Part shown: positions 8,223 through 61,636 of the stretch, piece by piece | Position numbering within the stretch: position 1 is the stretch's first letter | How the letters are laid out: each line of letters opens with the position of its first letter | From: Chrysomallon squamiferum | Lineage: Eukaryota; Animalia; Mollusca | Direction of reading: 5' to 3' | DNA length: 64,000 bases | NCBI GenBank assembly: GCA_012295275.1 | Contig: CM022671.1 | Location: 1,240,001 to 1,304,000, forward strand | Notes under the pieces: generated by a model | What the model was told of the DNA's origin: nothing | What the model saw: the letters and a program-made list of their open reading frames with translations, nothing else | Database searches by the model: none | Made by a program: the position numbers and the translations under genes

Positions 8223-8306
<84 letters not shown>

Positions 8307-13075: not shown

Positions 13076-13107
<32 letters not shown>

Positions 13108-13731: not shown

Positions 13732-13762
<31 letters not shown>

Positions 13763-16700: not shown

Positions 16701-19700
16701 TGACATTTGTAAAATTTTAAAAAAATACAACAACCCCATCTGCCAAATTTAAAAAAAATAATAATAAATTACAACATTATTATTTATCATAAGAAATAAT
16801 TATCAGATAATGTGATTTGTAATTACTATGTAATATTAACAGTAATTAATAGATCACCAAACAATGTTATAAAAGATGTTATACAAGGTCTTGTTGCTTT
16901 TGGTGCTGCTTATCCCACAATGCATTGTTTTTTCAGTTCTTTAGTCTGTATTGTAGGATTGTCATGTTGTACTTTCTCGCCTGAACATACAAAACATTGC
17001 TGCTGAAAAACAAAACTGAACAAAGAAACATCCTTTAAAACTGTGTATATTTCTCAGTTTTCTCTTCTGCTTTCACAATTCCTTTTTCACTTTCTCTGTC
17101 TCTCTGTCTCTTGTTTTCTTTTTCTTTACCTCTCTGTATCCCTTGAATACACAAACTCAGCATGCACGATACATTTGAATAATAAAAATAAAGCTACAGC
17201 TTCTGAATGCTTTATTTTCACTTGCTGAATATCTGCTATAGGCAGTCCTAAGCTGTTTCACACTTTCTTTTTGAGTAACACAGTTAAAGAAAAGTTTAAA
17301 GATAATGGAGATTTATGGATACACAACCAGTTCTTGTACTAGTTATGTATAAAATAAGTGTCATGCTTGTTTTCATCATGCAGATGATATCCAGAATCAT
17401 TCAGAGAAATAGCCAGTTTGGGATATAGTCATATTAGGAATCAACCGTATGTCCAAATGTAATATTTCCCTTTAACAGAAACAAAATAATTAAATTTGAG
17501 TCAACTTACTGTATTATAAATATAATGAATTTAATAATGCTAAATAAGGAACAATTTATTTTCTAAACACTACAGTCAAATAAACCAAAATTTACCTCAA
17601 AATTTAATAATGACTATATTTCCACATATAAAGACTACTTAGTTTTAAAAATAGTGTTCTCTTATTATACATTGCTTTCCTTTTCACTTATCTTTGGTGT
17701 TATGAACAAATTGTCTCGAGTGTTATTTTTGCAAGTGATTGTATTACTGAGTATCCGATCCAGTCTGTGAGTTTTAGTACAGCTCATCTGAGTACTCTTT
17801 TCTAGCTTATGTTATTTGTTTAAATAAAACTTGTCCTATTAATATTTTTATATCAAGAATACAATACATTAAATAAGTGACAGGAAGGACTTCTTTGCAG
17901 GCTTCTCACATCACTGTTTTACTTTATTATCACAAAAGACTGGTCTTGAAGAATTTATAAAACAGTTGCTTGAAAACAGATTAGAATATATCAGTAGAAT
18001 TTAAGCCATTTGTTCCTGCTGCTAAAGATGTACATTAAAACACTTAAATAAAGTGTGTGTTCACTGATGTTTGTATACACTGCTGTTCTCTTGTTCCGAC
18101 ACTTAGCTCCAACAAGCAAGCAGAACCCAGTCTGTAAGTTCTCTTTACACAGTCAAAACTTCATTGTCTCTCGAGTAATTTCTCAAAGAAAACACCTACA
18201 CTCCTGTCTGCTAACTGTCCTGCCTACCTGGCTCTCTCCCTTCATTCAACCTACTCAAACACCCAGATACCTTCCTAGGTACATATCCATCAACGTGTGT
18301 ATAGTGTAGTTTTTTTTTTTTAAAGATAAATATATTGAGACCAGTTTATTCTAGTATGTCCAAAATTGATTTTGCATCAGTATTAAAAGAAAGAAATAAT
18401 AGTTTAATTAAAGGAACAAAGAGAGGAGAAAGAAGAAAAGATGAATGAACTGAGAAAGAGCTAAAATGAGAGAGAGGTCTGCAGTGAAAAAGTTTTGAAA
18501 TCTTTTAAAATTTACCATAAATAAATAAATAAATATTGTATTATATTCTGTCTACATATTTTATAGAACTGAGTTAAAATCATTTTTAAATATTCATTTT
18601 TGAAATCTACTCCTTTGTACTTAACTTTATTACAGAAAAAAAAAATCCAACTGCTTATATTTTACCTAGCCTAACAGAAAAAACAAAACAAATATAACTT
18701 TGACAAAATTATTCACAGAGATAATGAAATTTGACTGTTTTCAGTTACTGTTTCTGTTCCTTCTTTTTTTAACAAAGGTTTAATGGGTGCAGTTTCTTTT
18801 ACAGTTTAATATCTAAATGCCAGCCCCAAATTGCTACAATACCAGCTTAACATTATTTTCACAGTCATTTTACAAAATTTATTTTATGACTTTATATTTT
18901 TGTTATGACAGAAGAAAATGAATGTAATAAAGGTTATAAAATAATTATCATCATAACAATAACAAAATATAAAGAGATGCTAAGAACAGACTGCATTACA
19001 CAGTAATTAAGATTTTTTGGGGAGTAACAGATAAAATAATTTATTCTGTTTCAGAATACCATCTGATTCCATAAACATTTAAAAACAAACATTATAAATA
19101 ATTTAAATGACGTATATCACAATATAATGTTTTCTATAACATAAAAAAAATCAGAGTTCATTACAAGATAATTACAAGCTAGTTTAGTGGTGACAATGTT
19201 ACTGTAGTTTCTGGTAGAGTGTAGAAACTGGTGTTGGAGTCTTTCAAACATGGGTCAGTGGTTACACTTGTTTCAGATACTAACCAATCAAAGGCCAGCC
19301 CACCACCACTACCTCCTCGGTACAGCGAAGCAGGTACAGCAGCACTGACATCACCACTGCTTAACTCCTTGGCTTCGTTTTAGCTTTCTGCTTCTTTTTC
19401 ATTTTTCAGTTTTGTTTGCTGTTTGATAGACTGAGCAGCCTATGTTAGAAATGTTTGAAATGAGACTCTATGTCTGTTAATGTGAACATTTTTTATATAT
19501 ATTTGATGAAACAGTTGTACGAAGCCTTTTTTCTGATCTTCTTTTTTTAATTGATTTGTAAGAACTTTAAAAAAAAAAAGTTGCAGAGGAGGTGAATTTG
19601 GTGAAAGGTGTGAGAAGTTGAGATGAACATATCTTACATAGGAGAACTCTCAGTCTAACCCTGGCATGCTTCAGTCTTGTGCACAGCGACTTACTTTGCT

Positions 19701-37727: not shown

Positions 37728-39072
37728 ATGGACAGGCATTCATCTTCCGACCGTTTTTCTGGATTTGGAGCACAACAACATGTGCAAGTGCAAAGAGCAG
37801 GTTTGTTGAAACAACAGCGTTTTTTAAACATTTAATACTAAATTAATTTATACAATAAAAACAAACAAAATTAAAATTTGTTGAAACAACAATGATTCTT
37901 AAATACTAATACTATTTATGGAATATAAATTTGCCGCAACGACAACATAGCTTCTGAAGTCCATTTGTCTTTCTTTACTGAAGAATATTAATAAATCACA
38001 TTATTTAAGTGAACATTTGTTATTTATTCAGATTTATATGTGTTAGCATTTTAAAGTATAAAATAATGAAATTTAATGTATGACCTATGTTACCAGATAC
38101 AGATCAGTGCTGGTTTTACATGACATTAATGTACTGATTGCAGCTTTGATTAAGATTTATAATATTTGGTAAACGGATTAATTAGGCCAATTGTTTTTGT
38201 TACGGTATTTATTTTTGATTACAGAATCAAGTACATCGTTCATATCAAGAGAAGAAATGATAAATAAAACAATGAATCAAATAAAAAGTTATGCTCCTTC
38301 AGAATTCGCAGAAATAACGTCTAACATGAAACTGAAAGAACAGGTGACAAAAGAAATTACCAACGTACACGAACTAACAATGAAACTGTCCCAGGAATTT
38401 CCGACCGGTCGTGAATACAACCAGAGAGAAGTTGAACAGAAAATGAAAAAGATTTTCTCTGACGAACAAATCCGACGTATCAAAAGAGGTCTTCAGATTC
38501 CAACTGCCAAACTGGATATGAGTTCAGACTACCTAGATATTACGATCTTCGACAGTGATCGAATTGAATCTGTCCTTTTACGGAAGCAACTGGCTACTTT
38601 TGCTGAATTTGGAAAGTACATTCAGAAATCCAGCGTCTTGGTAGAAGCTCTGTTATTGTTTGCTTCAGTGGCTGAAAAAGTACCATCTTACTCATCGGAG
38701 AGCATGAAGGATGCCCTGGAAAAAGGTGTTGATTTCATTAAAACGACTGGGGGAATTTCCTCAGCCTTGATGAAATGTGTGGAGAGTTGGACTGATTCTG
38801 GTAACAGCATTTGGAAGAAAGCTTATACTTTAGCAGAACTGATGGTGGATTTGTTCAAATCTTCCTGCGCAGTGTTTCTCGATATAATAAAAAGCCTGTT
38901 TAAAAACAAGTCATCAGTGGAATGGATAATGTGTTGTGTACGCCTTGTCGCCTTCTTCGGATCATACATTAATCCACTGGTTCCAGTAATAGCATCCGCT
39001 GCCGCCGATGTTGCTGATTTCGCACTTAAGTTCAAAAATGTCATGATGTTAATAAATGCTTTGAAAAAATGA
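37728..39072 (+). CDS. uncharacterised, predicted alpha-helical protein, ~306 aa, two coding exons
   Basis: ATG 37728; exon to 37800 (phase-1 donor GTTTGT) joins acceptor TTACAG|38225 in frame with the 293-codon ORF ending TGA 39072 (921 nt total). A likely upstream non-coding exon ends at 37537 (GTAAGT). Confidence 0.75.
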
Positions 39073-42544: not shown

Positions 42545-43488
42545 TCAGTCCATGTATTCAATCACAAGAGACTGATACTGGATGCCATTCTCTGCCAAAA
42601 TGTCCTCAGCATCTGCTTCTATTTTTATAGTTTGAAAAGAAAGAGTAGGGCATTCTGAATCTGGTTTTGTGTGATTCTCTTTAACATGCTTTTTCACTTG
42701 AAAAGGACGAGCAAAACATCTATCACAGAATTTACACTGAAATAAAAGATCATGACTGTGAGTGATTTTATGTCGAGAGAGATGAGAGGATGTCTGAAAG
42801 TCACGTGAACACACATCACACTTGTACGGTCTCTCTCCTGTGTGAATTCTTTCGTGGTTCTGAAGTGAAATTTTCTGAGAGAATCCTTTTCCGCATGTGT
42901 CACATTTAAATGGTTTAGTTCCCAGATGAAGACGTTTGTGAATCAACAGACTTGACACATGTGCCAGTCGGACTCCGCAGACGTCACACACATAGTTCTT
43001 TGTCTTCGTGTGCACCACAGTGTGCCGGTCTATGTCTCGCTTGCGGTAACTTTTAAAGGAACACAAGCTGCAGAAAAACTTGGGTTCCATGTTTTTGCTT
43101 TTGCCGAGATGGACTCGGTTGTAATGAAGATACAATCCCTTTCTGTCGTAAAATCTAGAAGGGCACGAATCACACAAAACATTTTTCTCACCCAAATGCC
43201 GCAGCTGGTGAGATTTTAGATATTTTTTTTTCACAAATATTTTCCCACAAGTCGGGCATGAAATGGCTGAGTTAGTTTTGGATTCGTGTGTTCGCTGATG
43301 CTGAATAAGAGCAGGTTTTGTCTTTATTCTTAGTCCACATACTTTACATACGTTTTCATTAGCCTGAACTGGGTGAACAGTGATATGATCCACATATTTA
43401 CTCATCTCTTCAAAATGTAAATTACAAACCGCACAAACAAACTTCAATTGAGATGTATCTGAATTTTCACATTTGTCAGTGGAATTGT
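42545..43488 (-). CDS. C2H2 ZF gene 2, terminal exon I (9 fingers)
   Basis: Acceptor TTTTTTCAG|43488 is phase 1; join to donor 43867 gives 663 aa; TGERPY and LGTKPF linkers; stop at 42545. Confidence 0.88.
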
Positions 43489-43866: not shown

Positions 43867-45424
43867 CTTCGTTTTCAGTTTGAAATTTTTCTATTTTGAT
43901 ACTAGTACAGTGTTTATTTGTCACACTAGACATTTGTTCTGCTTGTTCTCGTACACTTTCTTTTTCTTCAGTAATGTTGAATTTTTTCTTTGTTGGTTTT
44001 TCTGAAAATTGTCTTATTGATTTCAGTGACTTAAGGCCAGCTTTTCTTCCTCGCTTAACTGAAAATTGTTTTGAAGATTTATATTCTGTTTTCCTTTCAG
44101 TAATTTCTGAGCCCTTTTGTTCAGGAGATCCACTGTCCTCGGCTAAATCTGCAGCATCATCATCTGCTGATTTAGTTGAATTATCTTTTGACGTCGTTTT
44201 GAAAGATTTCTCATCTGCAGTTACAGATGATAATTTTACTGCTTTGTTTGAAGTATGTTTTCCTGATTTCAATCCAGCATCTTCAAGACCAACAAACTCC
44301 TGAGAACTAAGCTTCACAGGTAGTCTTGTATGTCTGCCAGATCTTCTGACTCCACTAGTATCTCTTTTTTCCCTTTTACATCCTTTTTTCACCACATCAT
44401 CAGTATTGTCAGTATGTTCCGATGAACTAACCAGTATTGCAGAATGAATTGTACTCGGTGTTTTTTTCATCTCTGTATTTTCTAAACTGTTATCTGTATC
44501 CTCTGAAGATGCTACTGTTTGAGTTAACAGAAGTTCAGCATCAGAAGAATTACACACACCTGCTCTTGTTTCAGATTCAAAAGAACTAGACAAAGCTGTG
44601 GAATTTATTTCAGTTTTCACTCCACTGGTATCCTCCACATGACTGTTTCCTGGGTCAGATTTTCTTCCTTCCAGAACAGAATTACTTTCCAGTCCACAAG
44701 ATATGACTGTGAAAAGTTTGCTGAAGAAGTCGTTTATAACAGATTTTTCCGGACTTTTCTCAGGAAGTCTGATGTAATCTTCAAATGATTTTATACTGAA
44801 ATAATTCAAAGAAAAAATATTTTAAAACTAAATATAACCAAAGAATGTTTAGGGCTACCGAGAGAACAAATTATAAATAATGTTTATACAAAAATGTTTT
44901 TTAATGTAATTTTTAATGATAAACACAACTCAATTTTATATAAGAAAATGTTTCCTTCAAATAAATACTTTGTAATAATCTCTAGAATTTCAGAACTGTA
45001 TTCAAGATTTACAAACATTAAAAATATAATGTAAACTAAAGGTAACATTAACTGATGTTGTAAACATAAATTAGCATTATTCCAGACCAATACTGTAACA
45101 ATTTTATCAAAGAAAAATAAATTTCAAATCATGAGGTCTTTATAATAAATATAGAGTTTTTAATTTTAAATGTATTTAGCTGCTGACAAAAAAGAAAATA
45201 TTAATTTAATAGGCACATTGAAGGCCAGCTACATAACTCAATTATTGACCACATACTAAATATTTTATTACTGAAAACAAAACAAATCTGAAAGCATAAA
45301 GTTACCAGTTATACAGCTGTATAAACAATGACATCTGTTTACTGGCATCAAGATGTGTAACACTCTGTATTTTAGAAAACTCAGCAAGAATATTCTGCTC
45401 AACAAAAATAGCACCAGTCACCAT
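43867..45424 (-). CDS. C2H2 ZF gene 2, shared 5' coding exons (N-terminal domain plus Ser/Lys/Glu-rich linker)
   Basis: Exon 45485-45306 (ATG 45424; MVTGAIFVEQNILAEFSKIQSVTHLDASKQMSLFIQLYN; phase-2 donor) and exon 44795-43867 (phase-1 donor GTAAGA). Probable non-coding first exon ending 46095 (GTAAGT). Confidence 0.82.
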
Positions 45425-47482
45425 AGCTGAAATTCAGTGTTGATTTAGCATTTCAATGCACTTCATCAGCAAGATATCATTCTATCTACAAAAATATAAT
45501 AAGGATATTTAATTGCTAAGATTTTCCATTTGCAAGAATCTATTCACCAGTTATAATTAATGTGTATACGTAACGTATGTGAGTATCTCGATTATCAATG
45601 TGACAGAGCGTAAGTAATAAGTTTATTCAATACTACGTTTATTCAGTTTATTGTATTAGACGAAGTATTGAAGAAGGCTCTGATCATTTGTTTATTTTTT
45701 TACGTTTAAAGTAAATTATCTTCTTATAGACTTATGTCTTTATAAAATTACTTTATGGGTTTCAAAGTAAAATGACATGATAAAATTGAGTTACTTCCCC
45801 TATGTTATAGTATAATTATAGCCAAAACACACACGCACACATGCACGAACGCCAGTGCACATAGGTTTATACATCAAAATCTTAATGACTTTTAACTGCA
45901 GTGCATGCAAGTATTTAAATACAGATAAATACATAAAATACATCAATTGTGTTATAAGTTTTGTGTCATTTCTTAACCATCGATGATCGAAAGTCTTCAT
46001 ATTTTGACTTCAGTAAAAAATTGTATGATATATTCCCAGAAAATATAAGTATTATGAAAAACAACAACACAACTTAATATCCGAATACACTTACCCAGTT
46101 TTTAAAATGAAAAGCACGGTTTAAAATTCAATAGATCTAGAACTCCATTCCTTTAAAACCTACCAAATGCAAGATTGTTCTGTTATTTTCCACCTTGAAT
46201 TATTAGGCACCGGAAAAATAAATTATAACGAACGTTAGTGATAATGGTTGTTCAGAATAGTTCAATATTGTAAAATGTCCTCTTTTCGACGGTTATTTCG
46301 AAATTTTTAATTCACTTTGTTATATATCAGGAATGTTACTGTTTTTATTAATATTAATTTATTGCTGTTATTATTTCCCCATTACTTTGTTGTTCACAAT
46401 AATCTCTGATGCAGATCACTCTGCTAGAATGAAACCTAAATTAAATAATATTAATTATAAATAATAAAATATTAATCTATAATAACATATTTTTTAAAAA
46501 ATGCTTTGTAAATTAATTTATTATTCGTCTTTAATAAGTTTTTAAAATAAAAATAACATATCTGTTTCCTGTGAAACTCAACTTTGTTTTTTTTTTCTTT
46601 AGTTGATGTTTGGATTTTTTAAATCATCTGACAGTCATTGCTTCTATGCTTACAGTCAGTGAGTAAGTAATTAATTTAAAATGAACAAAAGAGAAAACTA
46701 CTAACCAATAAAATAGAACAAATACTCTGTCTAAAGCTATGTATAATAATTCATATTTATTATTTAATGTCTGTGTGTATATACTTTCTGTGTTCACTGA
46801 TAAAATGTATATCGAGGAACACTGCATACAAAATGCAATTTGAGTTTTGTTTTGTTTTGTTCTGATCACCTGCTATTTCATTTTACATTCTATTACAGGT
46901 AAGAGATTGAATTAATCCTTGTTTGGTTGCCATTTCATTTTCCAGCCTGTTCCCTTTACTGACAACATATCTATAGGAAAAATAAAAGATTCTTATTTTT
47001 AATCAATTGGACAGCAATGGGTTTTTTCTCTCTTGCAGTCATTTACATGAAACAGGCCTTGACAAATTAACATCATGTTGTGTTAAACATTCACTCTCTT
47101 GGCTGATTTTGTGTGTCATAAAAAAAAAAAACTGAAGAAAAATACTGTTCATATAAAATTTATCCTCCATTCTTTTTATTTGTCTGAAAACTGATAACTG
47201 TATTGCCAATACTTGGATAAAACAACAGACTTTAAACTTTATCAACAATTTTATTAACATTTGATTTTATGACAAGTTAATTTTTTTTTTTAGGTCTTAA
47301 TGCACTATTAACACAGTTCTCCGACATTTTTGGGGTAGTTTTTAAACCATTTAACAGGCTACAAGTTCTGCAGTTATACAATTTCAATGTACAGATAAAT
47401 CTAAGTTTGTCTTTGTTAAAAATTTAAATAAAAAAATAAATAAAAAAAAACAATAACAAAAACCCCAAACAGCAACAACAAG

Positions 47483-47533
<51 letters not shown>

Positions 47534-50068
47534 TGATAATAAAAATAAAATGTTATTATCAACTAGCATTAAACTTGTGCACATGAACAATTGTTTCTTT
47601 CTACCAGTGGAGCCTAGACTCAATCATTTACTTATTGGTCAAATTATCAATATATTATAAACCTGCTTAAAAAATATATAATAAAAAAAAAAAAAAAACC
47701 TGCTTCTTGATAATAAGTAACTATGCACTGCATGTTAACAAATATTTAACTGATTTGACATTTACATAAATATATGAACATAAATTATTACTTTAAAATA
47801 ACATCAACTCATGAATCTACATAATATGTAATAATGAATATGTCATTCTCTCTGAAAGTATGTAATTAGTTTCATTTGGCACATATTGGCCCAGTTCCCT
47901 TAGGGTGAATACTTTTATTTCTTTGAATCTGATTTTGCTTCTAAGACCTTGCCAGAAATGAAAGCCATGCATATAAATCAAATACATCAGTGTAAGATGT
48001 AAAGATAAACACAGTTATGAGATATTTTTATTTGAATTCAGAATTATAAAATAAATACAATAAAGAAATCCTTTTTAATGGAAGATAATCCCATGCATTA
48101 TACTCTCCCATTATAACAGCTTCATCTTTTTCTGGAACCTTCACAAAAAAATTAGTTGAGACTGTAGCAAACTATCACAGACTTATGTTTGGTGAATGTA
48201 TTGAAAAATGTTATTATTTTAATAAGATGATATCTTCAATGACATTTATTAAGCATATAAAATGAAGAGGAAGAAAAAACACGAACACATATAGATCTTT
48301 TGCAGCCTACTCTGTTTAATGTAAAAAATATAATGTGAAGTCAGCATCAGCAAAATAATAAGAATGATGTAAAGAGACATTACAACTTCTTTCTGGAAAA
48401 AGATAATAAACACACTGCAATATAATGTGACCAAATCATACTCGGAAGAAACGGATAAAAAATTGTGAAGCTAAGAAATGTCTTTATGGAAAAAAATAAA
48501 AAATAAAGAATGATGTTTTACAAGAAGGAAAGAAATAGAGAATATTGTGGCAGATTCTATCAGAAAATGAAATCAAAGATAACAGCACTCATGTGTGGAT
48601 TTGTTTTCTCACTGAAAATAGCAGTAATGCTTTCACCTACATGGCTGTAAGTACATTGAGGCAAATAAGGCAAATGGCTCATACTGAAACTGATAATTAT
48701 TATTTTTTATGTTGATTTTTTTGGTTTAGACAGATTTTATTTAAAAAATATAAAAGATGTCAGGAAATGGCAAGAATTGAGGATTTTGCATCATATTGTG
48801 TTGATGTCACTAATTTATTTTATTTTATTTTACTGTTTGCTCTCTGGCTCCTTTACTAAAGACAAAGGAAACCTCCCCAAAAAGCAACAACAAAAAACTT
48901 AAACCTTCCAAAAACATGCATAAAATAACAATACTGCAGATAACTACATTGTTTTCAATAAAAACAAGTTGAGTACAATAACTGAAACTTAATTTTCACA
49001 TCCAGCTTGATTTCCTTGGTATCATCATCCTGCTGTTTCTGATGTATAAAAGTGACAGGTGTAAAAGCAGTAGACTCAGAAAAATACAAGACTAAAAAAG
49101 TAACAGATTATGCAGGATGTTATCCAGGCATGTATACAAATATATATCTCATCAAGTTAATTATTTTCATAATTTTGTGTTTCTGTGTTATAATTTGGCT
49201 ATAATATTCCATTCACATAATTATAAAAATGATAACAGAAGTTTTCTCACACCTATCAGTAATTTATGTGTCTGATTATCCTAATATGACTCGTTTATGT
49301 GTTAAATATTTGTCAAAAATCAATTTTTTTTGTAATTTTAATAACCCAGAAATACTTTGGAGTCAGTATTTGGAAACACTTTCAGTTTCACACTAGATCT
49401 GGAAACACATCCACACCAACAAAATTTCAAATACCTAAGGCAGCAAAGTAGACTTGCCGCTGGCAAAGAGAAAATACAGACAACATAATTTGGGACCCAT
49501 ATACATATAAGCTTCATCTATATTTTTGTGAATAATAATTTATAATTTATTATCAAAGGTAAACAATGTTTACACTATAATTTACCAAATTATGATTTAT
49601 CTCTACTTTCAAATAGTGCATTTTCACCCACCCAAGAACACATCAATTAATTATATTGACTGTTTCAACCATCCCTGTTTTGTGTACCTTGATTAGAAAT
49701 CTATGTAAAACAAAATACCTCTGACAAAAACTATCATAGGTTTTATTAAAATAGTCAAATGTTTGCTCTAATAATAAAAATAAAACAATAGTATTAGTAG
49801 TAGCAGAACAGTAGTTGTTATAGTGGAAGTGATAGTAGCAATAACAATAATAATAGCAATGATGATAATGATAAAAACAATAAAAACAATAAAAATAATA
49901 AAAGATGCCAGGAAATGGCTAAAATAAAAGGAAAATATTAATCTGTAATAATAAATATAAAGTAGGAGGTTAAACCATACACAGATTGATCTCATGAGAA
50001 ACACATTAAATGATTATCTGAGTTTTGATAGTCAAAGTTTTTAATCCTACAATCACACTTGTAAATGT

Positions 50069-53000
50069 TTATCCAGCCTCTTCTGCTTTTTCAGTTTCCT
50101 CCACATTAGCTGGCTCATCGTTCTCTAAACCATCCCCACTGCTGTTCTCCAACTTCTTATTTTTATCACTGCTGTTATCAACACTTCTATCATTGTTCTT
50201 ATCATCATTATCAACAGCTTCTTCTTCTTCTTCTTCTTCTTCCTCTTCCTCGTCATCAACAGCATCTTCCAAATCACTTCCACTGTAGTAAATGTCATCT
50301 TTGGCTTCCTCTTTGCAGTGGAATTTGGTGATGTGTTTTGTGAGGTGTCTTTCCAGGTAGAAGCTCATGTCACACTGTGGACAGCTGTGGCGTTTCTTTA
50401 TCACATTTGTTTTGGGGTTGGAGTTAGAACTGGATGTATTCTTCTGTCGGGAGTGAATTTTCATGTGTTGTCGTCTGCTGGAGAGTTTTAGAAATGTCTT
50501 ATGGCAGATGTGACAGGTAAATCTTTGTCTAGTTCTGAGACCTGGAAGAGAGGTAATAGTTACCTAATATTATCAACAACTATTAAAAAATAGTAAAAGT
50601 TATGCTTATAATGTGCTTTATTATTTGTAAAATACTGCTTTGTTAAAAGATTGAAAGTTAAAAAAAAAAAGATACTTAGGCTATTAACTAAATTACCTGG
50701 TAACTAATTTAACATCAGTTTTCAATAAACCATGCAAAAAAACACAACAATAAAACCTAAAAAACCAAAACAAAACAACAACAAAAAAGCCTAAAAGAAA
50801 TTCTTTTTTTTTTTTTTTTTTTTGATGCATCATAATGTTATCAGTACAACAAAGTATATCATGCTTCAACAGCAATGGACAGATGGAATGATTTTTTGTA
50901 TTTTATAGTTAAAAAAGATTGTTATATCTGGAGTCAACAAAACATAAAACCAGCAAGTGCTTACCACTTTTATCAACTTTTCTGTCACATACGTTTTGTT
51001 TGACATGCTTGTTATATAGATCCTTTCGGTAAAATGATTTACAACATATGTCACACTGAAAGGGCTTTTTCCCAGAATGCAATTGCATATGCCGTGATTC
51101 ATTTGATGCATTATGAAAATGCTTATGGCATATTTCACAAGTAAAACCACTATCTTGATGTATTTCTGAAAGTTACAAATACAAAGCACTTGTTGATTCT
51201 GTTTTGTTCCACCATTTGTATTCAAATAACGATAATCCAAATATTTCACTCAATGAATGAGAATACTTAATGATATTTTGGCATGAAACAGTACACCAAC
51301 TATTACTGAATGTTACCAGTAAGTGTGTAATTAATATTTTAACTGGCCTAATAAAAATTTAAAAATTAAATTTAAAAAGTAATCTGATAAATGAAAATGT
51401 AAAACAGTTATTTATTATAATTGTTTTTAAGGAACTCAGTTAAAATGCAGTGATTATCACTAGAGAATGGGGCAATTTGGGGTAATTGTTTTCAAAATAT
51501 ATTTTATATATACATGCATACAAATGCAACATATTGTTTGTCCAAAATTGTTTATAACCAAAAGAATAATTTGTGAAAGGGAAATCCTCTAGTTCGTTAG
51601 TTTTGTAAATGAATTAAAAATAAATTCTCCCCTTCCCAAAACAATAAATATAATGACAAAAGTTAAATAATAATAATAATAATAATAATAATAATCATAA
51701 TATTAATCATAAAAATACTGAAAAATATTAAAAAATAAATAAATAAATAAATAAAAAAATAAATAAAAAAAATAAAAAAGAAGAACCAATAAAATAAGTA
51801 GGACAAGAGTACATTTTCTCACCTTTTTTAACAATCTTTTCACAGAGGTTTGCTGCCAGGTGTCTGTCGTACACATCTTTACGATGAAAAGATTTATGAC
51901 ATTTTTCGCACTTGAATGGTGTCTCCCCAGAATGCAGTCGCATGTGTCGTGCTTCGTTAGATGCGTTTCGAAACCATCGTTTACAAATTTCACACTTGAA
52001 GCCACCATCTTCTTTTCTCTGCAGACGCTTTATTTCTGAAAATCAATGCAATTTATTTGATTAGTTATTTTAAATAAACATTCAGCTTCTTTTCTGAAAA
52101 TAATGTAAACCATTTGTTCCCTACTTGCTTTAAGTGCATGTATATCTGTAATATTTTTATATCTTTATATTTGTTAAAAGAAGCAAAGGGTTTCCTGTAT
52201 ATAATCACAACTTACTGACGCACAATACACCTTGCAAATATCCTGCCACTTCCCGCCAGAAAATGGAATAAACAGGTAACTACAACAAACTTGGTAAAAC
52301 ATTTCTATAACATGTTTATAAATAATTTCAGGAGCTTACTTTTTACACAGATGTCTTCTTTGATGTGTTTGGTGTAACTCTCCTTCCTATTAAACTGTTT
52401 GTGGCACTTCTCACACTGCCAGGGTCGTTCTCCTGTGTGAGTTCTCATGTGTCTGGCTTGATGGGAGAAATTTCTGTACCAGCGGTGACAGACCTCGCAA
52501 GTAAACCCGTCTGGCCTCTTCTTTCTCGAAGGACGGGGTTCTGAAAGAAAGCAAGAACGAAATAGGTAAGTTGTGGCACATGCAGATATATGATCTTCAT
52601 GCACAGATATCAATCACACATGCACTTGACTCCATATTGTAATGTATTTTGAATACTTTTAGATATATAGGTAAAAAAAATAAAAAAATAAAAAAAGTAA
52701 ATCAATCCTGCCTTTGTTTATTTTCAAGTAATTATATAAAATACATTTAAAATAATAAAAAAAAGTAATATTTTAACTTTAAAAGAAAGAAAGTGGCTTC
52801 TACCTCAAGACATTCCACATCTATATATATTTTCAAGTAAATATTTTAACTTTTTGTTCACATCATTTGAGGAACACATTAAATTAATTCTGCTGTGAAG
52901 TTCCTACCTGTGTGTATTTTCATGTGCAGTTGTCTGCCTTCTTCTCTGGCAAAACATCGACCACACTCATCACAAGAAAATGGTTTCTCTCCGGTGTGTG

Positions 53001-53585
53001 TTCTCATGTGTATTTCTTCATAACAAGGCCTTCGAAACCACTTGTGACAAATAGTGCATGTAAACCCAGACTGCTTCTTCTTCTTTCTCTTCTTTGGCAC
53101 TACCAGACCTAGGTGTAAATAAAAACATGCAGGTTAAGCATTAAATTATATTCAAAAATATTTTTTTCAATTGTCTGTAACAGGTAACTGTCTGCTAGTT
53201 TTGATTCAAATTTAATATAATTAGTATAAATGCACTATCAAGCAATATGTATGATCTAATATATGTAATGCATAATTAACACACACACACACACACACAC
53301 ATTTATTTTGTATCAAATTTTCGAAATAAATTCATTGTTTCAAAAGTGCAAAATCCAGAGTAGTGAAACACTTCCACAATTTCCTTATTTTAGTTTTCTT
53401 ACCTGCATGTATTTTGAGGTGAAATTTCAAATGATCCTGTCTCTGGTAAGCTTTTCCACACTGGTCACACTTAAACGGTCTTTCCTTTGTGTGCACGTAA
53501 GCATGTCGCCTGGCATGTGAAGCACGGTATATGTCTTTATTGCAGATTGTACAGTAGAAAGACCTTGCCAGACGTATAAAAATAC
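50069..53585 (-). CDS. C2H2 ZF gene 1, multi-exon terminal module (6 exons, 2 fingers each, acidic tail)
   Basis: Exons 53585-53403, 53108-52908, 52540-52340, 52035-51823, 51165-50965 (all phase 1-1; 183, 201, 201, 213, 201 nt) and 50541-50069 (stop; poly-Glu tail). Joined to donor 60610 gives 756 aa. Confidence 0.82.
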
Positions 53586-54204
53586 CTAAAAAAGATAATA
53601 AATGTAACAATTTAAAAATAATTAAATCCTTAAAACATGTAATTAGACTCTGACTGACATTTTAATTAATGACAAATTCGATCACCAAATGAGAAAAAAG
53701 TAAAGTTTACAGCACTCCATTATCCTCTGGGCTACTTTTTAGTGTATTTGTGATAAAAAAATCCCTTTTTTTATCTATTTCCTTGGGGACTTTGTTCAGA
53801 ATGGATACCAATCTGTCATAATAAAGTACAAATTAATAATTTGCATGGAAGATGTTATTCTTCTATTTTTGTGAATAGGTATGTATATATGTGTATGTGT
53901 GCTGGAGAAAGACTTTCTTTTGTATGCATATGTGTGTGTGTGTGTATATATAGAATATAACTTACAGATTGAGTATTTACAGTTTTGCAGCATTTACCAT
54001 CTTTCACACTCTATTTTTCTTTATTTTCAAAAGTTTGTTTTATCTGTGTAAGGAAGATCTTTTATATGTGCCTATCTAGAGGCATGAAAGTACATTGAAC
54101 ACTCTAATAGTAAATGTAAATGAGTGATTATAATCTGGCTTATTGGATGGGCTGTTCTTTGCTTTAGCACAATATACAATAACCAACAGTATTAGAAATG
54201 AACA

Positions 54205-54240
<36 letters not shown>

Positions 54241-54635
54241 TTGTATATGTATATTTGTTTTTTTAAAGAAAACACAGTAATAATAATAAAAAAGTAAATA
54301 AATAAAAAATAAAAAAATGTTTTAATTTACTTTGTACTGGGTATTCAGTTCATTTAACAAATCAGCACAAACACTGTTTTTACACACCTCATAATATTTA
54401 TTATGTTTAGTGTAATAAAACACACACTTTTAAATATTGTTTAAAAACAGATTCATTTACATTTTTCCAAAACTAACAATGTAAAGAAATATTTGATGTT
54501 TTTCTTGGATGAAAACTGTCTGAAAAACTAGAATGACCCAAAGATGTTTTTCAGCATGCAGTACAATGTCTTCAAGTTTCTCCCAATCCATCCTAACAAG
54601 AGAAAATAAATGTCTCAAGAAATTATATATAAAAA

Positions 54636-55174
54636 TTAATTTATAGTCTTCATCACATGAACAGACCGGAGATGTCTGAAGAAATTTGACCGACATGAAA
54701 ACGTTTTTCCGCAGGTGGCACACATGTAAGGCATCTCTCTTGTGTGAGTCACTAGGTGTGTCGCAAGTTGTGACGACTGAATAAACTTGCGTCCACAGGT
54801 CTTGCACTGGTGAGGTTTGATCCCTGTGTGCTGGAATCTGTGCCGTTTGAGTGAGCTCTGAAAGGAAAAGCAGAGTCCACACACTTCACAAACGTGGTTC
54901 TTTGTCCCTGAGTGAGTTATGTAGTGATCTCTCAGATGCATTTTGGTTCGAAACGGTCGGTTACAAACACTGCACCGGAATGGTTTCACTCCCAGGTGAA
55001 TGAGAATGTGTCTTGCCAGTGTGTCCTTTCTTGTGAATTTCTTACCACACTCATCACATTTAATTTCTCTAAGACATGCTTTCTGGTGCTGTTTGATTGT
55101 TCTCTTTCGGTAACAAACTTTGTTGCATTTGCTGCAAGTATATTCAGTTCTGTGTACTTTCTGGTTGGTTTTGT
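54636..55174 (-). CDS. C2H2 ZF gene 1, alternative terminal exon B (6 fingers)
   Basis: Acceptor TTTCACAG|55174 is phase 1 and extends the 117-aa ORF upstream by two more fingers; stop at 54636; join to 60610 gives 445 aa; AATAAA at ~54402-54397. Confidence 0.82.
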
Positions 55175-55358
55175 CTGTGAAAGATACAAAATAAATATGA
55201 TTAGATGTTTAAAAACACTATTCATACATATGACACAGATACTTCAAAAAAATTACCTTTACTGAAATTAAAAACAACAGCTTTTTCTTGGTTAAATTTT
55301 GAGTTAAATTTTATTTACCTTTCATGTGTATCTAATAAAATAATATATATATATGTAA

Positions 55359-55359
<1 letters not shown>

Positions 55360-55404
<45 letters not shown>
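55360..55404. repeat. (TG)n microsatellite
   Basis: Pure TG run. Confidence 0.95.
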
Positions 55405-55408
<4 letters not shown>

Positions 55409-56827
55409 CAAAATTCTAAATAAGAAATTAAAACTCAAAAATGTTGTTTTAAAATATTAATACTAACAAATCTGAATTATAAAAATCAGACTTCATTGAA
55501 AACAAAAATACAAAAAGAAAGGCTGAACTCACCACTAAAATGGCTTCTTTCCTCAAAATTAATAGCCAATTCAGAAGTTGATGATTGAACAGAAATACTC
55601 CACATTTAATGAACTAAGAAAGAAGTAAAGTTGTGAAAAATCCTGGACCAGAACAGGCACATTTTCTTTGAAATGAAATCACGCAATGAATTCATCATAT
55701 TGATAAAAATTTAAAAGATAAAAACCCACAAAAAATAGTACGCAAGAGTGATAGTCTTTTTATAATGTAGCCATAGTGAGAAATGAAAAATACTTTATTT
55801 CTTAAATTTTACATTATTTTCAAAATTTTTAATTTGTCATACAACTTGTGATCACTGAATTAAAGTTGCTCATAAGAATACTAGAAAATAAACCATTTAT
55901 ACAGTGAGTTCAGTTTTCTTTTTTCTTCACCTGAAAATTAAATATCATTCAAAACATTTGCTAACTGAAAAGTGTACAAACTATTTTTGATTAATCAAGC
56001 TCAATAAAGTAGCTCATTATACTGTGTCTGACATCACTGCTTAACTTTTATCAAACTTCAACAGACTTTTCTTTAATGACATTTCAGTTGTAACATAACT
56101 AACTTGAATAATAAAAATTCTGGCACAGAAACATGAAGAATCTAGTTAATTAAAATCATTACTGCTTCATCACTTACATCTTCACAATTATCTGATAGTA
56201 AAAGCAACAAATACCAAGAAAAAAGAAAAGAAAGAAAAACATTATCATGTTTTGTTTAAATTACTGAAAAAGAAGTAATTACAAAGTTTCAACACATTAT
56301 ACAAAGCCTATAATAACAATTGAACATTTTACTTCTTAGTACTTTTGGCAATAAAACTACTGTGTGTTTTCTTTGGGAAACAGTTTAATTCAATTTCTTT
56401 TCTTTTTTTATGAATTACAAGTTGTTTTAAAAAAAAGAAAAGAAAAAAAAAAAAAAAAAAAATTTAAATTAAGAATCAAAAATAAAGAAAGATATATAAT
56501 CTTATTAAAATGTACTAAAAGAAGTAACACATTTTCATTTTACTAACTGAATTTTTAGACAATTCTAAATGATCATATATTTGAATAGCTATATAACAAC
56601 TTAACCAAAAAAAAGAACTTAACAAGAAAGAAAATAAAACAATAATGTATAGAATATGCTCTTGCTAATTAAACACAACCTCCAAAATGTAATAATGGCA
56701 TAAACAAAGATAGTAAAATTATGCAATATGTTTTACAACTGCATAGCAGTTCATGACATGATATTGAAAAAAAGTTCTCTTGTGTTTGTGTCTATCTGAA
56801 CATATATTTATATGTATTTGAATAATG

Positions 56828-58614
56828 TTATACAGTAGATGTATTCAGTATACTTTGGTTGTTTTCGTGCACTTTTCTTGTATGTTTAATCAAACAGGTT
56901 TCTGTTCTAAAGATCTTTTCACAGTTATCACATTTATGTTGTTTCTTATCAGTGTGTGTTTTCATGTGACGATGCAAATCATAAGCAAGATGATAACGTT
57001 TATCACAGACTGAACACTGGAATCCACAAGTCTTAGAGTGTCTTGTCAACATATGTCTCTTTAGAGAATATTCAAAAGAAAATTTCATCCCACAACATTC
57101 ACACATGTGATCCTTCTGTCCTGTGTGTACCACTGAATGTTTATTCATGTAATTTTGAGTGTCACAGACAAAAGGACACCAAGGGCATTTCAGTTGTTTT
57201 TTCTTTTTGACACTTTCAGTTTGATGAACCTGAAGGAAATGCTTTACAAATCCTGTTCTGGATGTATATAACTTAGAACAAACGTTACAAGTGAAACTGG
57301 ATCGAGTAGGATTGTGAATTCTACTGTGCTGAGTTAAACCACCTTTGAAGTGAAAGTATTTTCCACAAACCTTGCAAGTATAGACAGTGTTATCTGAATG
57401 TGTCTTTTTATGCAAGTTTAGTGCTGATACTGAAAGAAAGCACCTATTGCACTGGTCACATTTGAAGGGTTTGTAATTGATGTGGGAGGACATGTGAACT
57501 CTAAGACTGGATTGTCTTGGAAATGATTTATCACACTGGCCACACTGAAAAGGCAGAAAGCCATGATCATTCACCTTGTGACTGACCAACGTTGTCTTTG
57601 TAGTAAAGAGCTTGTCACAAAACTTACAAGAAAATATATTCACTCTTGATTGATTACTGCTACTCTCATCCACAGAAACACAGATCTCATTTTTGTGTCT
57701 TTTAGCAATGTGTGCCTTTAAGGTGTACTTATTCGCAAGGCACTGCTGGCACCAATAACACTTAAATGGCTTTGCACCTGTGTGTGTTCTCCTGTGGCGA
57801 TTAAGTGAGCTGTTTTTAGAAAAGCTTCTGTTGCATATTTCACAGACATATTTGTATACTTTAGGATCTGTGTGAAGTTTTTTATGACTGATCATAGATG
57901 ATCGTTCTGTGAAAGACTTTTCACACTGATCACACTCATACGGTCTCAAGCCAGAGTGAACCTGAACATGGCTCATCAGCATTTCTTCTGTGTCAAACTT
58001 GCCATCACAATACCTGCACTGATGTTTTAGAATTCTAGACCTCTTAGTTTTCATTACAGTTTGGGTATTTTTCAACTCTGGTGATATCCTGCTATTATTT
58101 TTGTGTTTGATGTCTAATGAATTTCTCTCATGTGATGCCATATTTGAATTACTCATCTCAGGAGTGTTTTTATTTGCTTCTGAATTAGATGAAATGACAG
58201 ATCTTTCATGAAAGTGTATGTGTCTGTGTCGACTAAGAGTAAAACCTTTAGCAAACTTTTTCCCACAAATATCGCAGAGGTACTTGAAAGCACTTTCACC
58301 TAAATGCAGTTTTTTATGGGCGACTAATGATGATCTTTCTGTAAAAGTCTTTTTACATTTTATACAAACATACGGTTTGAGACCTGTATGAGTTTTTACA
58401 TGGTTACTGAATTTCTCAAAGTCACAAAACATGCTATCACAAAATCTGCACCTGTGTTCTGACAAAGGTATGTCTTCATTAAATGTAATGTAATATTTCA
58501 ACTTTGCTGCACTCTGGTTATTTACTTCTGATTCTCTCAACTGTTTATTTGCTTCTAAGGAGCTGCAAGGAACTGAAGACAGTCTGGACTTTGTCTCATT
58601 ATCTTTGTTCAGTT
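56828..58614 (-). CDS. C2H2 ZF gene 1, terminal exon A (16 fingers)
   Basis: Acceptor TTGTTTCAG|58614 is phase 1; 16 C2H2 fingers counted in the 601-aa ORF; stop at 56828; join to 60610 gives 861 aa. Confidence 0.9.
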
Positions 58615-59959
58615 CTGAAACAATAAACACCACCTGTCAGCCACTTCAGGGTGAAATCAGACAAACATACAGATAACAGTATGATTATAAATGTTATCCT
58701 ATGTAGTTATCCATTGACTTACGGTTAACAAAGATACAGTAATTTATAAATAATTCTGTGAACCGTATCTGTTTTTCTTAAAGTAACTACTTTTGTGAAA
58801 AAGAAGTATCAGGTATTTCCGTTTTCTGTTCAGTGTTCAATGTAGCAGCATAACTGTACATTGATATTGATAAATAATGTAATCTTTAAATCATCCATCT
58901 GTTTTCTTTTTTCAGTAAAGATATGAGTAATGAAATGATATATGATGAATGACTAATAAAAGAAAATAGCATTTATTCAGTTATAGTGTATATTTTGTTC
59001 TTCAGATATTTAGATTGTAAAATGTTTTTTGCAGTTTTACATTATTATTGGGATTTTTTAATTTTTGAACCTATAAAATACAATTACATAGTTAAAAAAA
59101 AAAAAAATAATAATAATAATAAAAAAAAAAAATTAATATCACAACTGAAGAACTGGTTCTCAGCTGTATAATTTACTTCAAGGTTAGAGGTTTGAAGGGA
59201 AGACTGCATATCATTTACAAACATTTGAACTGTTTTATAATGTGTACATTATTTATCTATTCTTTGCCAGTTAGCTCCAAACAAATATCTAAAATGTTTA
59301 TCCATCTCCAAAAGTGGTGAGATTATTCAGCTTCAGTGACATAATTTTTGATGTCTAGTGCTTCAAATAAATATAATGCCCTAATATATTCCTGTACATC
59401 CAAATGTTAATTTTGTTCACAGACTCTGTTAATAATAAAATATAAAACAATAATCTAACAAGAAACAAGGTAGCCACTATTAAGTCTTGGAACTACTTGC
59501 TGACTGAAATGAAGTTTATAAATTATGTGCAGAAAACCTAATTTCATTATTATTTACTTTGTGTTATCTGGAATGATTGGCAATAAGATTCCAAGTCGCC
59601 AGGTTTTATGGAGTGATTGATAGAAAATCAAAATGAATTAAATAATATTAACTGAATGCTCTGAAAAAAAAAATCCCATTACACTAAACATGATTTATAC
59701 AGAAAATATCTGTGCATTCCAAATGATTGTTCTCTGTACAGAAAATTTGTTTTTACATCTTTCATATCTCAGATCTTTTGAATAGCAAATCACAGTGATC
59801 TATAATAAGTTATCTCATGGCTGCAACTTGGCTCTTTTTGAAATGAGCCAAAAACCAATGCCTTTTAAGTCAGTTATGTCTTTCATCGTAATGATGTCGG
59901 TAGACTTCAAACGGTAACCACAGTCTTGAACATATTCATTCAGTGGATATTGTTTCTAT

Positions 59960-60215
59960 TGCAATAGAGATATGTATTTTATTATTTTTTAAATAAAACC
60001 TTTGTATAAAAAAAAATTTAAAAATTAAAAAAAATAACAAAAACATTTGGGATTTTCAGTATGAGGTATTTGTTTCAATACAGTTCTGGCAATAGAGATT
60101 TATATTTTATATTTTTTAAATAGAATCTTCGTATAAAAAAAAATTAAAAATAAAAAAAAATTAAAAAAACATTTGGTCATTTCAGTATGAGGCATTTGCC
60201 TCAATATAGTTATGG
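59960..60215. repeat. ~128-bp tandem duplication in ZF gene 1 intron
   Basis: GCAATAGAGAT...GTATAAAAAAAAATT...ACATTTGG...TTTCAGTATGAGG(T/C)ATTTG...TCAATA appears twice. Confidence 0.8.
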
Positions 60216-60609
60216 CCATGTATTCATAAGGCTATTGATAATTTCATTTTTTTTAAAAAGAAGAAAAAAGCCAAGTCTCATGCTTAGCAACCCATGTGAA
60301 CATGTTCAATGTATTCCAGATGGCTGCAGTTTGAAAAAAAGAACCTAAAAACAACCAGTTAACATAATAGTGTGACATTAATACAATAGTTTAAGTAGTA
60401 AATACCAAAGGTATTCAGTAGAAACCTGCTATGATATACTCTAGAATATGCTAGGCATAAAATATAAACAGCAATTATAGCTGACTAATTAAAGTTTAAA
60501 TCTTTATAAATATGATTATTACAAAAAGAAATCCCTATTCACTACATTATAACTGGGTTCTACTCCACAATTTAATAAAAAGAAATTATAACATGCATGT
60601 ATAACACAC

Positions 60610-61636
60610 CTGATTTATCCAAAATTTCATCTTTTTCTATTGGAATGCCTCTATCAACTTTTGACCGGTATGGGCCACGTTTTCTACCAACGTTTTTAAC
60701 TACTTTTTTCACCATTTTATTTTCCTCAGTATTGCTGCCTATCGATATACATCCTGATGGAAGCAGAACTTCATCAGCAATGTTGCCTGACCCTATTTCT
60801 TGGATGTTAGAAGTCTGCAAAATCATTGATGTCATATCACAGTCATTGTCACTTTGTTCTGGGGGTGCAGCTTCAAAGAATGTTTCTTCCAAATTATGAC
60901 TGATGTTCTTGGATGGAGATACATCTGCCTGCACAGAAAATGTTGTCAAGGCAACAGCTTCAGCTGGAAAAGCTGCAGCATCTGATTGTTCTTGAGGAGC
61001 TATATGTTCTGTATACAACGACTGTGGAATTATGGGATTTGATGGGTCAATTTTTGAAACTGCTTTGTTTAACACTGATACTTTCGGGTAGTCCTGGTTA
61101 TCAGTCGGAACGCTAGGTACTGTCGAAGGTTCTAATGAATCCTCTGTTTTTGGAACAACCGATGCAGTTGACAATGGGCTGCTGTAATCTGATGCAAACT
61201 TCTTGAAAACATCTGATAAGACAATCGTGCTGTCAGCATCGAGATCATCCCTGTCAAGTTTCACATGAACTGACTTGACACTGAAATAACAAATTTTACT
61301 GTGAAAGTAATTTACAAATGAGAATTGATATTCAATAAATAAATAAATAAAAAGTATGGAAAGACTAATAAAGTAAAAATGCTCACAGTTTTAACACTAG
61401 TATATGTAAAGCACCTCTTCATTTTATGACATATGATCAAATCATATTATGAAAAGAAACCAAAAAAAAAAAAAAAAAAAAAAAACAATAGAAATGAGAA
61501 TATTTTACCAGTGGTACAGTTGAAAGAACTGTTCCATTTGCATATCAACATCAAGATTAGTTTCATACTGAATGGCCTGGAACTGTACAAGAATGTCATG
61601 CCTGACAACAAGCATACAATTCCCGTTTTCAGCCAT
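60610..61636 (-). CDS. C2H2 ZF gene 1, shared 5' coding exons (N-terminal domain plus linker with basic GRKRGPYR motif)
   Basis: Exon 61661-61509 (ATG 61636 in context AAGATGG; MAENGNCMLVVRHDILVQFQAIQYETNLDVDMQMEQFFQLYH; phase 2) and exon 61280-60610 (phase-1 donor GTGTGT). Probable upstream exons 62060-61921 (in-frame ATG at 62012 possible) and one ending 63121 (GTAAGT). Confidence 0.82.

What the first reader, a model, noticed from the sequence alone, without database searches (positions are those of the whole stretch)
45306..61636. Conserved ~40-aa N-terminal domain shared by both ZF genes, missed by the ORF track
Seen: gene 1 (61636-61509) MLVVRHDILVQFQAIQYETNLDVDMQMEQFFQLYH|CVKS aligns without gaps to gene 2 (45424-45306) AIFVEQNILAEFSKIQSVTHLDASKQMSLFIQLYN|CIKS. 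Consensus hhVxx[DN]ILxxFxxIQxxTxLDxxxQMxxFhQLYxC[VI]KS, with an identical phase-2 intron (TG|GTAA). It does not look like KRAB, SCAN, BTB or ZAD (no four-Cys pattern). Inference: a short beta-strand plus two amphipathic helices suggests a ribbon-helix-helix-like dimerisation module, loosely like the ZNF653/ZNF692 N-terminus. It could play the role BTB or ZAD play in insects, letting isoforms with different finger arrays heterodimerise.
Basis: partly seen in the sequence, partly recalled or inferred. Interest (0 to 1): 0.72.

Follow-up and report, generated by a model that had tools for sequence, protein, structure and literature searches.

The report
Ribbon-helix-helix module on snail zinc fingers
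Two neighbouring zinc-finger genes of a snail-like animal start with the same small, unnamed, conserved domain, predicted to fold like the pairing module of bacterial ribbon-helix-helix repressors, which would likely let protein versions carrying different DNA-reading fingers pair up.

Summary
Both exons are real, homologous (15 of 32 identical; 0 of 5000 shuffles) and end in the same phase-2 intron. RNA contigs show the gene 2 exon spliced (2 of 4 runs, one study). Gigantopelta aegis RefSeq orthologues carry both exons. The module is about 37 residues long and ends at the exon boundary. It has no Pfam or NCBIfam match. It occurs at the N-terminus of C2H2 proteins from 12 gastropod genera. An AlphaFold2 model (pLDDT 85.6) compared with 48,161 PDB chains returns ribbon-helix-helix (RHH) proteins almost throughout its top 50 (NikR, PutA, Arc, TCP; Z up to 5.2, 35-42 of 42 residues aligned). 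The Z values are modest and there is no sequence similarity to RHH proteins. The arginine and polar residues that RHH strands use to read DNA are hydrophobic here, so the module is probably a dimerisation scaffold rather than a DNA reader. Both genes join it to alternative 3' finger exons, as lola does with BTB. Dimer formation is inferred from the fold and was not modelled. The link to ZNF653/ZNF692 is untested. Verdict: a new variant of a known kind.

The parts
61509..61636 (-). Gene 1 first coding exon: RHH-like module (core residues about 7-43)
   Evidence: 86% identical to the G. aegis orthologue; model
61281..61508 (-). Gene 1 phase-2 GT..AG intron closing the module
   Evidence: matches the junction in P0003/P0004; no RNA laid on gene 1
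60610..61280 (-). Gene 1 shared exon 2: about 37 residues conserved with the orthologue (one predicted helix, low confidence), then a variable linker; phase-1 donor
56828..58614 (-). Gene 1 terminal exon A, 16 C2H2-like fingers (861-aa product)
   Evidence: orthologous to G. aegis isoform X1, P0004
54636..55174 (-). Gene 1 predicted alternative terminal exon C, 6 fingers (445-aa product)
   Evidence: in frame with GT..AG sites, Pfam C2H2; no orthologous isoform among the proteins retrieved
50069..53585 (-). Gene 1 alternative 3' route B: five symmetric phase-1 two-finger exons (53585-53403, 53108-52908, 52540-52340, 52035-51823, 51165-50965) and terminal exon 50541-50069; 12 fingers, 756 aa
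   Evidence: 58-88% identical to G. aegis isoform X3, P0005; X4 (P0003) skips one exon
45306..45485 (-). Gene 2 first coding exon (ATG at 45424): RHH-like module
   Evidence: RNA contigs X1 and X3 span it with joints 46095/45485 and 45306/44795; orthologue P0006
43867..44795 (-). Gene 2 shared exon 2 (linker), phase-1 donor
42545..43488 (-). Gene 2 terminal exon A, 9 fingers (663 aa)
   Evidence: joint 43867/43488 in 4 of 4 RNA runs; 73% identical to P0006
40663..41417 (-). Gene 2 alternative terminal exon B, 7 fingers (600 aa)
   Evidence: joint 43867/41417 in 1 of 4 RNA runs, short side 28 letters; G. aegis isoform X2, P0029, has the matching end

Best explanation
The exon encodes a conserved, unnamed module of about 37 residues at the N-terminus of gastropod C2H2 zinc-finger proteins, predicted to adopt the ribbon-helix-helix fold and likely to act as a dimerisation domain rather than a DNA reader. 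Shown: the exons, the splicing of gene 2, the alternative 3' finger exons, the family and its N-terminal position. Predicted: extended segment 7-12, helix 13-26, helix 30-41, arranged as in an RHH monomer. Inferred: two copies pair their strands antiparallel and pack four helices around the conserved I9/V11/F19/I22/L28/M34/F38 core, as RHH proteins do. All isoforms of a gene carry the identical module, so self-pairing would join different finger arrays (16, 12 or 6 fingers in gene 1; 9 or 7 in gene 2) in one dimer that could bind two sites or bridge distant DNA, as BTB, SCAN and ZAD do. The outer face of the ribbon is hydrophobic, so it likely contacts protein (a further dimer or a cofactor). 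Pairing between the gene 1 and gene 2 products (41% identical core) is possible but unsupported.
For: AF2 model from 22 rows: pLDDT 85.6, five models 82.3-85.6. VIA-align against 48,161 chains: top rows NikR Z5.2/rmsd2.9/41 aligned, PutA RHH Z4.9/2.1/39, Arc Z4.9/2.5/42, TCP Z4.8/2.9/42; I recognise 46 of the 50 listed rows as RHH proteins (mostly recalled; 2 say so in the title) and cannot place 4. The best Foldseek hit in BFVD (TMq 0.74, prob 0.63) matches by name and length a CopG gene that passes Pfam RHH_1. Helix lengths and the turn fall in the ungapped Arc/Mnt/CopG register; hydropathy r 0.42, best of 15 shifts, 105 of 20000 permutations. Position 10 is Arg in 3 of 3 RHH references but Val/Cys/Phe in 17 of 17 distinct family rows. 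In the HMMER scan of 1.84 billion proteins all 7 hits match within residues 1-80; of the 5 not already in the query, 4 carry C2H2 fingers and 1 is a 42-aa single-exon product. 18 of 19 word-search hits carry C2H2 domains. Alternative 3' exons. RHH folds are dimeric with the ribbon formed between subunits (passages of PMC3159463, and bioRxiv 10.1101/2022.11.22.517060).
Against: All Z values are under 8, where the tool warns that only a common arrangement may be seen; only 1 chain reached Z 5. Foldseek on PDB gave 0 matches at E<=10 for the same model, and none of the 42 BFVD hits reached E<=0.001 (best 0.91). There is no sequence signal to Arc, Mnt or a 3-row RHH alignment (hhalign probability <=0.33%; PSSM 1027 and 2084 of 3000 shuffles). 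I chose the hydropathy register myself, and it is weak for Arc (1190 of 18758 control windows as good) and Mnt (4801); only CopG stands out (4). The turn glycine of the three RHH references is absent from all family rows. DSSP assigns no strand in the monomer model. pTM is only 0.54. Terminal exon B of gene 2 rests on one RNA contig with a 28-letter side plus the RefSeq model.
Confidence: 0.65

Rival explanations
1. The module is mainly a cofactor-recruiting helix pair, like KRAB or FiNZ, and binds a co-repressor or chromatin factor; any RHH likeness reflects a common two-helix arrangement.
For: Very high conservation in one orthogroup (68-92% core identity to Littorina across caenogastropods and heterobranchs) fits a conserved partner. 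Short N-terminal module on its own exon, acidic, like FiNZ (28 aa, Glu-rich; PMC10547256 passages). Hydrophobic surface on both faces of residues 8-11. Modest Z values.
Against: The structural neighbours are uniformly RHH and cover the N-terminal extended segment as well as the helices. No large expansion was found: 4 genes in G. aegis and one orthogroup elsewhere. This reading does not exclude dimerisation.
Confidence: 0.17
2. The module is a functional RHH DNA-binding domain that adds its own sequence recognition to the fingers.
For: Fold neighbours are DNA-binding proteins, including eukaryotic TCP. A conserved Arg12-Lys13 pair follows the strand in most rows (14 and 13 of 18).
Against: Outer strand positions 8 and 10 are mostly small or hydrophobic (Ala/Val; Val/Cys/Phe) against Asn/Ser and Arg in the references. 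The start of helix B is Ala-Asn-Glu, and gene 2 has no basic residue in positions 6-12.
Confidence: 0.08
3. The module dimerises through another small fold, such as the docking/dimerisation X-type four-helix bundle of PKA RII/DPY-30 (resemblance recalled from memory).
For: Same size and the same extended-helix-helix order; aromatic-rich second helix.
Against: No Pfam family hit for the exon peptides at E<=10, and the best structural matches are RHH proteins over the full length.
Confidence: 0.07
4. The real domain is a larger unit of 75-80 residues over two exons (for example a KH-like beta-alpha-alpha-beta-beta-alpha fold), of which the exon is only half.
For: Orthologue identity stays at 85% (gene 1) and 55% (gene 2) up to residue 80 and then drops. 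A third helix at 64-75 is predicted.
Against: The paralogues are not significantly alike after the exon (864 of 5000); other gastropod members diverge right after the junction; the 80-aa model has pLDDT 58, no strands and no significant neighbour.
Confidence: 0.03

Closest known systems
Prokaryotic RHH proteins (NikR 2ca9/1q5v, PutA52 2rbf, Arc 1arq, AmrZ 3qoq, CopG/Pfam RHH_1 PF01402)
   Same: Predicted monomer fold, size and helix register.
   Different: No detectable sequence similarity; no Arg or polar base-reading residues on the strand; no turn glycine; fused to tandem C2H2 arrays in an animal.
Plant TCP domain (PCF6, 5zkt)
   Same: A eukaryotic transcription-factor domain with an RHH-like fold (passage; Z4.8, rmsd 2.9, 42 aligned).
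   Different: TCP is itself the DNA-binding domain; here C2H2 fingers read DNA and the module lacks the reading face.
Drosophila lola and mod(mdg4) (BTB plus alternative C-terminal zinc fingers)
   Same: One shared N-terminal interaction domain joined to alternative 3' finger exons (PMC11426971 passages; here).
   Different: No BTB; a 37-residue module; 2-3 alternative ends per gene rather than 20-30; all exons lie on one strand in order, and trans-splicing was not examined.
SCAN-, ZAD- and KRAB-C2H2 proteins
   Same: N-terminal accessory domain before a linker and C-terminal finger cluster, in small tandem clusters; SCAN and ZAD preferentially homodimerise (PMC5509000 passages).
   Different: No Pfam match, no Cys pairs, a different predicted fold and a small family.
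FiNZ-ZNF genes of cyprinid fish
   Same: Short lineage-restricted N-terminal module without a known domain match (PMC10547256).
   Different: FiNZ is 28 aa on about 700 zebrafish genes and tied to transposon repression; this family has 1-4 detected genes per genome and a predicted RHH fold.

Membership tests
RHH transcription-factor superfamily | Strand-helix-helix monomer of about 40-45 residues | tested here: met
   On a predicted model only: pLDDT 85.6; NikR Z5.2/rmsd2.9/41, PutA Z4.9/2.1/39, Arc Z4.9/2.5/42
RHH transcription-factor superfamily | Hydrophobic core positions in RHH register | tested here: inconclusive
   r 0.42, best of 15 shifts, 105 of 20000 permutations; register chosen by me; strong for CopG, weak for Arc and Mnt
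RHH transcription-factor superfamily | Dimer with an intersubunit antiparallel ribbon | not tested
RHH transcription-factor superfamily | Polar or basic base-reading residues on the outer face of the ribbon | tested here: not met
   Position 10 is Arg in 3 of 3 references and Val/Cys/Phe in 17 of 17 family rows; position 8 is Asn/Asn/Ser against mostly Ala
RHH transcription-factor superfamily | Glycine in the turn between the helices | tested here: not met
   Gly in 3 of 3 references; Lys/Asn/Arg/His/Gln/Ser in the family, never Gly
RHH transcription-factor superfamily | Profile match to a Pfam RHH family | tested here: not met
   No RHH family for any of 10 members at E<=10; the reference proteins do match
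KRAB, SCAN or BTB C2H2 proteins | Pfam match to KRAB, SCAN or BTB at the N-terminus | tested here: not met
ZAD C2H2 proteins | Two invariant Cys pairs in a 71-97 aa domain (PMC5509000) | tested here: not met
   No invariant Cys within the core; the domain is about 37 aa
ZNF653/ZNF692-type N-terminal motif (recalled) | Sequence or profile homology to the vertebrate motif | tested here: inconclusive
   No vertebrate protein among the hits, but the profile was shallow (6 rows), could not be iterated, and no direct comparison was made
lola/mod(mdg4)-type loci | Constant N-terminal exons spliced to alternative 3' finger exons | tested here: met
   Gene 2 RNA joints; RefSeq isoforms of both orthologues; frames
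lola/mod(mdg4)-type loci | BTB domain | tested here: not met
lola/mod(mdg4)-type loci | Trans-splicing | not testable with these tools
   Needs allele-resolved long reads
FiNZ-ZNF | Homology to the 28-aa FiNZ sequence; cyprinid-restricted | not tested
   FiNZ sequence not held; all named hits are gastropods

The most novel reading that the evidence does not exclude
RHH-C2H2 proteins are an unrecognised, old class of animal transcription factors. In this locus it is combined with lola-like alternative finger exons to build mixed dimers with paired DNA specificities.
Probability: 0.3. Interest if true: 0.82.

Novelty: new variant of a known kind. Interest (0 to 1): 0.62.

Why it matters
Molluscs can carry more than a thousand tandem zinc-finger ORFs (PMC10547256 passage). 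The review passages I read list N-terminal accessory domains only for vertebrates (KRAB, SCAN), insects (ZAD) and the general BTB. This is a concrete candidate for gastropods, present in tractable animals (Aplysia, Lymnaea, Biomphalaria, Pomacea), small enough for direct biophysics. If the dimer is confirmed, the RHH fold, known from prokaryotes and plant TCP factors, also works in animal transcription factors, and the lola-type design has arisen with a different pairing domain.

Tried and rejected
Complex prediction (homodimer of residues 1-50) was not available; the queue was full, so there is no verdict on binding. No RNA was laid on gene 1, so its splicing rests on splice sites, frames and RefSeq orthologue models. 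No whole genome is held, so the copy number in this organism is unknown. Library scans named nothing: Pfam (best YDR124W_N E 0.076 in one member), NCBIfam, PHROGs (best E 0.035), PDB sequences (best E 0.099). ESM Atlas: first hit 0.85 with retrotransposon gag clusters sharing only 99-111 features, taken as chance; no usable feature hit and only weak helical matches for residues 1-80. Foldseek on PDB: nothing significant for the 80-aa model (best E 7.7) and no hit for the 42-aa model. No RII/DPY-30 or helix-turn-helix entry that I recognise is among the 50 VIA rows, which does not exclude them. The VIA run for the 80-aa model could not be queued. The metagenome DNA scan found 188 pattern matches and 0 relatives. 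A KH-like reading was prompted by two unrelated ZF proteins (P0023, P0025); they do not score with the profile and the reading was dropped. No Haliotis, limpet, bivalve or cephalopod hit was found, which is weak evidence given one non-iterated profile search. Literature searches listed no title or abstract describing this domain or an RHH domain in animal C2H2 proteins; the library lacks most subscription journals and I opened no supplements.
Full report
Observation. Gene 1 reads from ATG 61636 to 61509 and gene 2 from ATG 45424 to 45306. Each ends in TG|GT, a phase-2 intron that splits a Cys codon, with acceptors at 61280 and 44795. The peptides share 15 of 32 residues (E 6e-9 for the pair), and 0 of 5000 shuffles reach the score. 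Neither exon shows in a list of stop-to-stop ORFs of 70 aa or more. A profile finds no third copy in the six frames of the window.

The exons are expressed and conserved. RNA contigs from one study join 45306 to 44795 in 2 of 4 runs and join an upstream exon (46095) to 45485 in the same two. The one difference listed inside the coding part of the gene 2 exon (45401, one contig of low depth) falls on a third codon position of Val8. No RNA was laid on gene 1. RefSeq proteins of the vent snail Gigantopelta aegis are orthologues of both genes and begin with these exons: P0003/P0004/P0005 for gene 1 (86% over the exon) and P0006/P0029 for gene 2 (54%). The window is therefore from a gastropod close to Gigantopelta (inference). 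Orthologue identity is 85% (gene 1) and 55% (gene 2) over residues 1-80 and 20-62% in 40-residue blocks of the linkers.

Gene anatomy. Both genes run module, linker exon, then alternative 3' finger exons, all with GT..AG sites and open frames. Gene 1 can end in one 16-finger exon (861 aa), a chain of five symmetric two-finger exons plus a terminal exon (12 fingers, 756 aa), or a predicted 6-finger exon (445 aa). The first two match G. aegis isoforms X1 and X3/X4; the third has no orthologous isoform among the proteins I retrieved. Gene 2 ends in a 9-finger exon (joint in 4 of 4 runs) or a 7-finger exon (1 of 4 runs, short side 28 letters; matched by isoform X2, P0029). The fingerprint residues of these arrays differ. 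This is the design of lola and mod(mdg4), where one BTB domain is joined to many alternative finger ends (PMC11426971, passages).

Family. A 6-row profile scored against 1.84 billion proteins gave 7 hits at E<=0.001. Two were already in the query. The other five match within residues 4-53: two more G. aegis C2H2 genes, Biomphalaria, Littorina and an unnamed 42-aa product. A 10-row profile in the word-indexed search gave 19 hits among 4955 candidates, 11 of them new; 18 carry C2H2 domains and all 17 named ones are from 12 genera that I know as gastropods. The caenogastropod and heterobranch members look like one orthogroup (40-87% best-HSP identity after residue 100) that is only 21-40% like the four G. 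aegis genes, so the module travels with several unrelated finger arrays. Conservation stops at the junction Cys. Three unnamed products have Trp there and then stop or run into unrelated sequence, as read-through of a TG|G junction would give; a shared intron position across gastropods is thus inferred, not shown. Pfam, NCBIfam, PHROGs and PDB sequences name nothing.

Fold. AlphaFold2 with 22 rows gives a confident 42-residue model (pLDDT 85.6, pTM 0.54): extended N-terminus, helices 13-26 and 30-41. The 80-residue model from 6 rows is poor (58.3). VIA-align against 48,161 chains lists 210 at Z>=2 and 1 at Z>=5. The top rows are NikR (Z5.2, rmsd 2.9, 41 aligned), the PutA RHH domain (4.9, 2.1, 39), Arc (4.9, 2.5, 42), TCP (4.8, 2.9, 42), AmrZ, TacA, MazE, ParD, RelB, NikA, ParG, TraM and omega. 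I recognise 46 of the 50 rows as RHH proteins. That is mostly recalled; it is backed by titles for two rows and for MatP, TCP, RelB and TraM. I cannot place 4 rows. The best BFVD Foldseek hit matches a phage CopG gene that passes Pfam RHH_1, and five more of the 42 rows are named RHH or NikA. Against this: Z is below 8, where the tool warns of common arrangements; Foldseek found nothing in PDB and nothing significant in BFVD; and sequence comparison with Arc, Mnt and CopG is negative. The weight lies in the uniformity and full-length cover of the neighbours, not in any single score.

What the fold is likely for. In the ungapped register anchored on the RHH turn, the family's most conserved residues (I9, V11, F19, I22, L28, M34, F38) fall mostly on hydrophobic positions of the three references (r 0.42; 105 of 20000 permutations; register chosen by me; weak for Arc and Mnt singly). 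The ribbon of RHH proteins contacts bases (PMC3159463, passages). Here the outer positions 8 and 10 are mostly Ala and always Val/Cys/Phe, against Asn/Ser and Arg in the references, and the turn glycine is missing. So the module should not be filed as a member of the DNA-binding RHH family, but it probably works like its dimer scaffold. RHH units are dimers, and SCAN and ZAD serve C2H2 proteins mainly by homodimerising (PMC5509000, passages). Since all isoforms of a gene share one module, self-pairing alone would give dimers with two different finger arrays. The dimer is inferred; no complex was modelled. I put this reading at 0.65, cofactor recruitment as main role at 0.17, own DNA binding at 0.08, another dimer fold at 0.07 and a larger two-exon domain at 0.03.

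Novelty. Accessory N-terminal domains on C2H2 proteins are a known kind (KRAB, SCAN, ZAD, BTB, FiNZ). This one is unnamed, and the RHH fold did not appear for animal C2H2 proteins in the titles and abstract openings listed by searches. Those searches miss most subscription journals, and supplements were not opened. I could not compare sequences, so it is a lead for a wider class and not support. The ZNF653/ZNF692 link is recalled and untested. Papers: passages read from PMC10547256 (with outline and abstract), PMC11426971, PMC5509000, PMC3159463 and bioRxiv 10.1101/2022.11.22.517060; listing only for PMC2812701 and the rest.

Verdict. A real, expressed, gastropod-wide domain with a predicted RHH fold and a likely pairing role: new variant of a known kind, interest 0.62.

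Noticed in passing
window 61655-61629 (-) and 45466-45434 (-): Both genes have a short upstream ORF in the first coding exon: an out-of-frame 8-codon one that overlaps the start codon of gene 1, and an in-frame 10-codon one that stops 9 bases before the start of gene 2 (read output). Possible translational control.
   Followed up: no
window 53585-50965 (-): Five symmetric phase-1 two-finger exons, three of them clearly duplicated from one another; G. aegis isoforms X3 and X4 differ by skipping one, a cassette system for finger pairs.
   Followed up: partly
window 61280-61170 and 44795-44680 (-): The first 37 residues of exon 2 are as conserved with each orthologue as the module itself and hold a predicted helix (64-75), but are not shared between paralogues or with other gastropod members; perhaps a gene-specific interaction helix.
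   Followed up: partly
window 38182-39072 (+): Intronless 296-codon ORF, helical-looking, with no Pfam match above cut-off and no significant PDB sequence hit.
   Followed up: partly
window about 7171-22206 (+): 3' part of a DOCK-family GEF gene (DHR-2 lobes A, B, C) with a proline-rich tail.
   Followed up: partly
window about 33820-29900 (-): Multi-exon Ser/Thr kinase gene (Pkinase), testis-specific-kinase-like by my recall.
   Followed up: partly
window 11049-11524: Tandem repeat of about 54 bases running from a DOCK exon end into the intron, open in several frames.
   Followed up: no
P0023, P0025 (unnamed ENA proteins): Two C2H2 proteins unrelated to this family share a different conserved N-terminal region of about 75 aa with no Pfam match (for P0023); it looks KH-like to me (recalled).
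   Followed up: no
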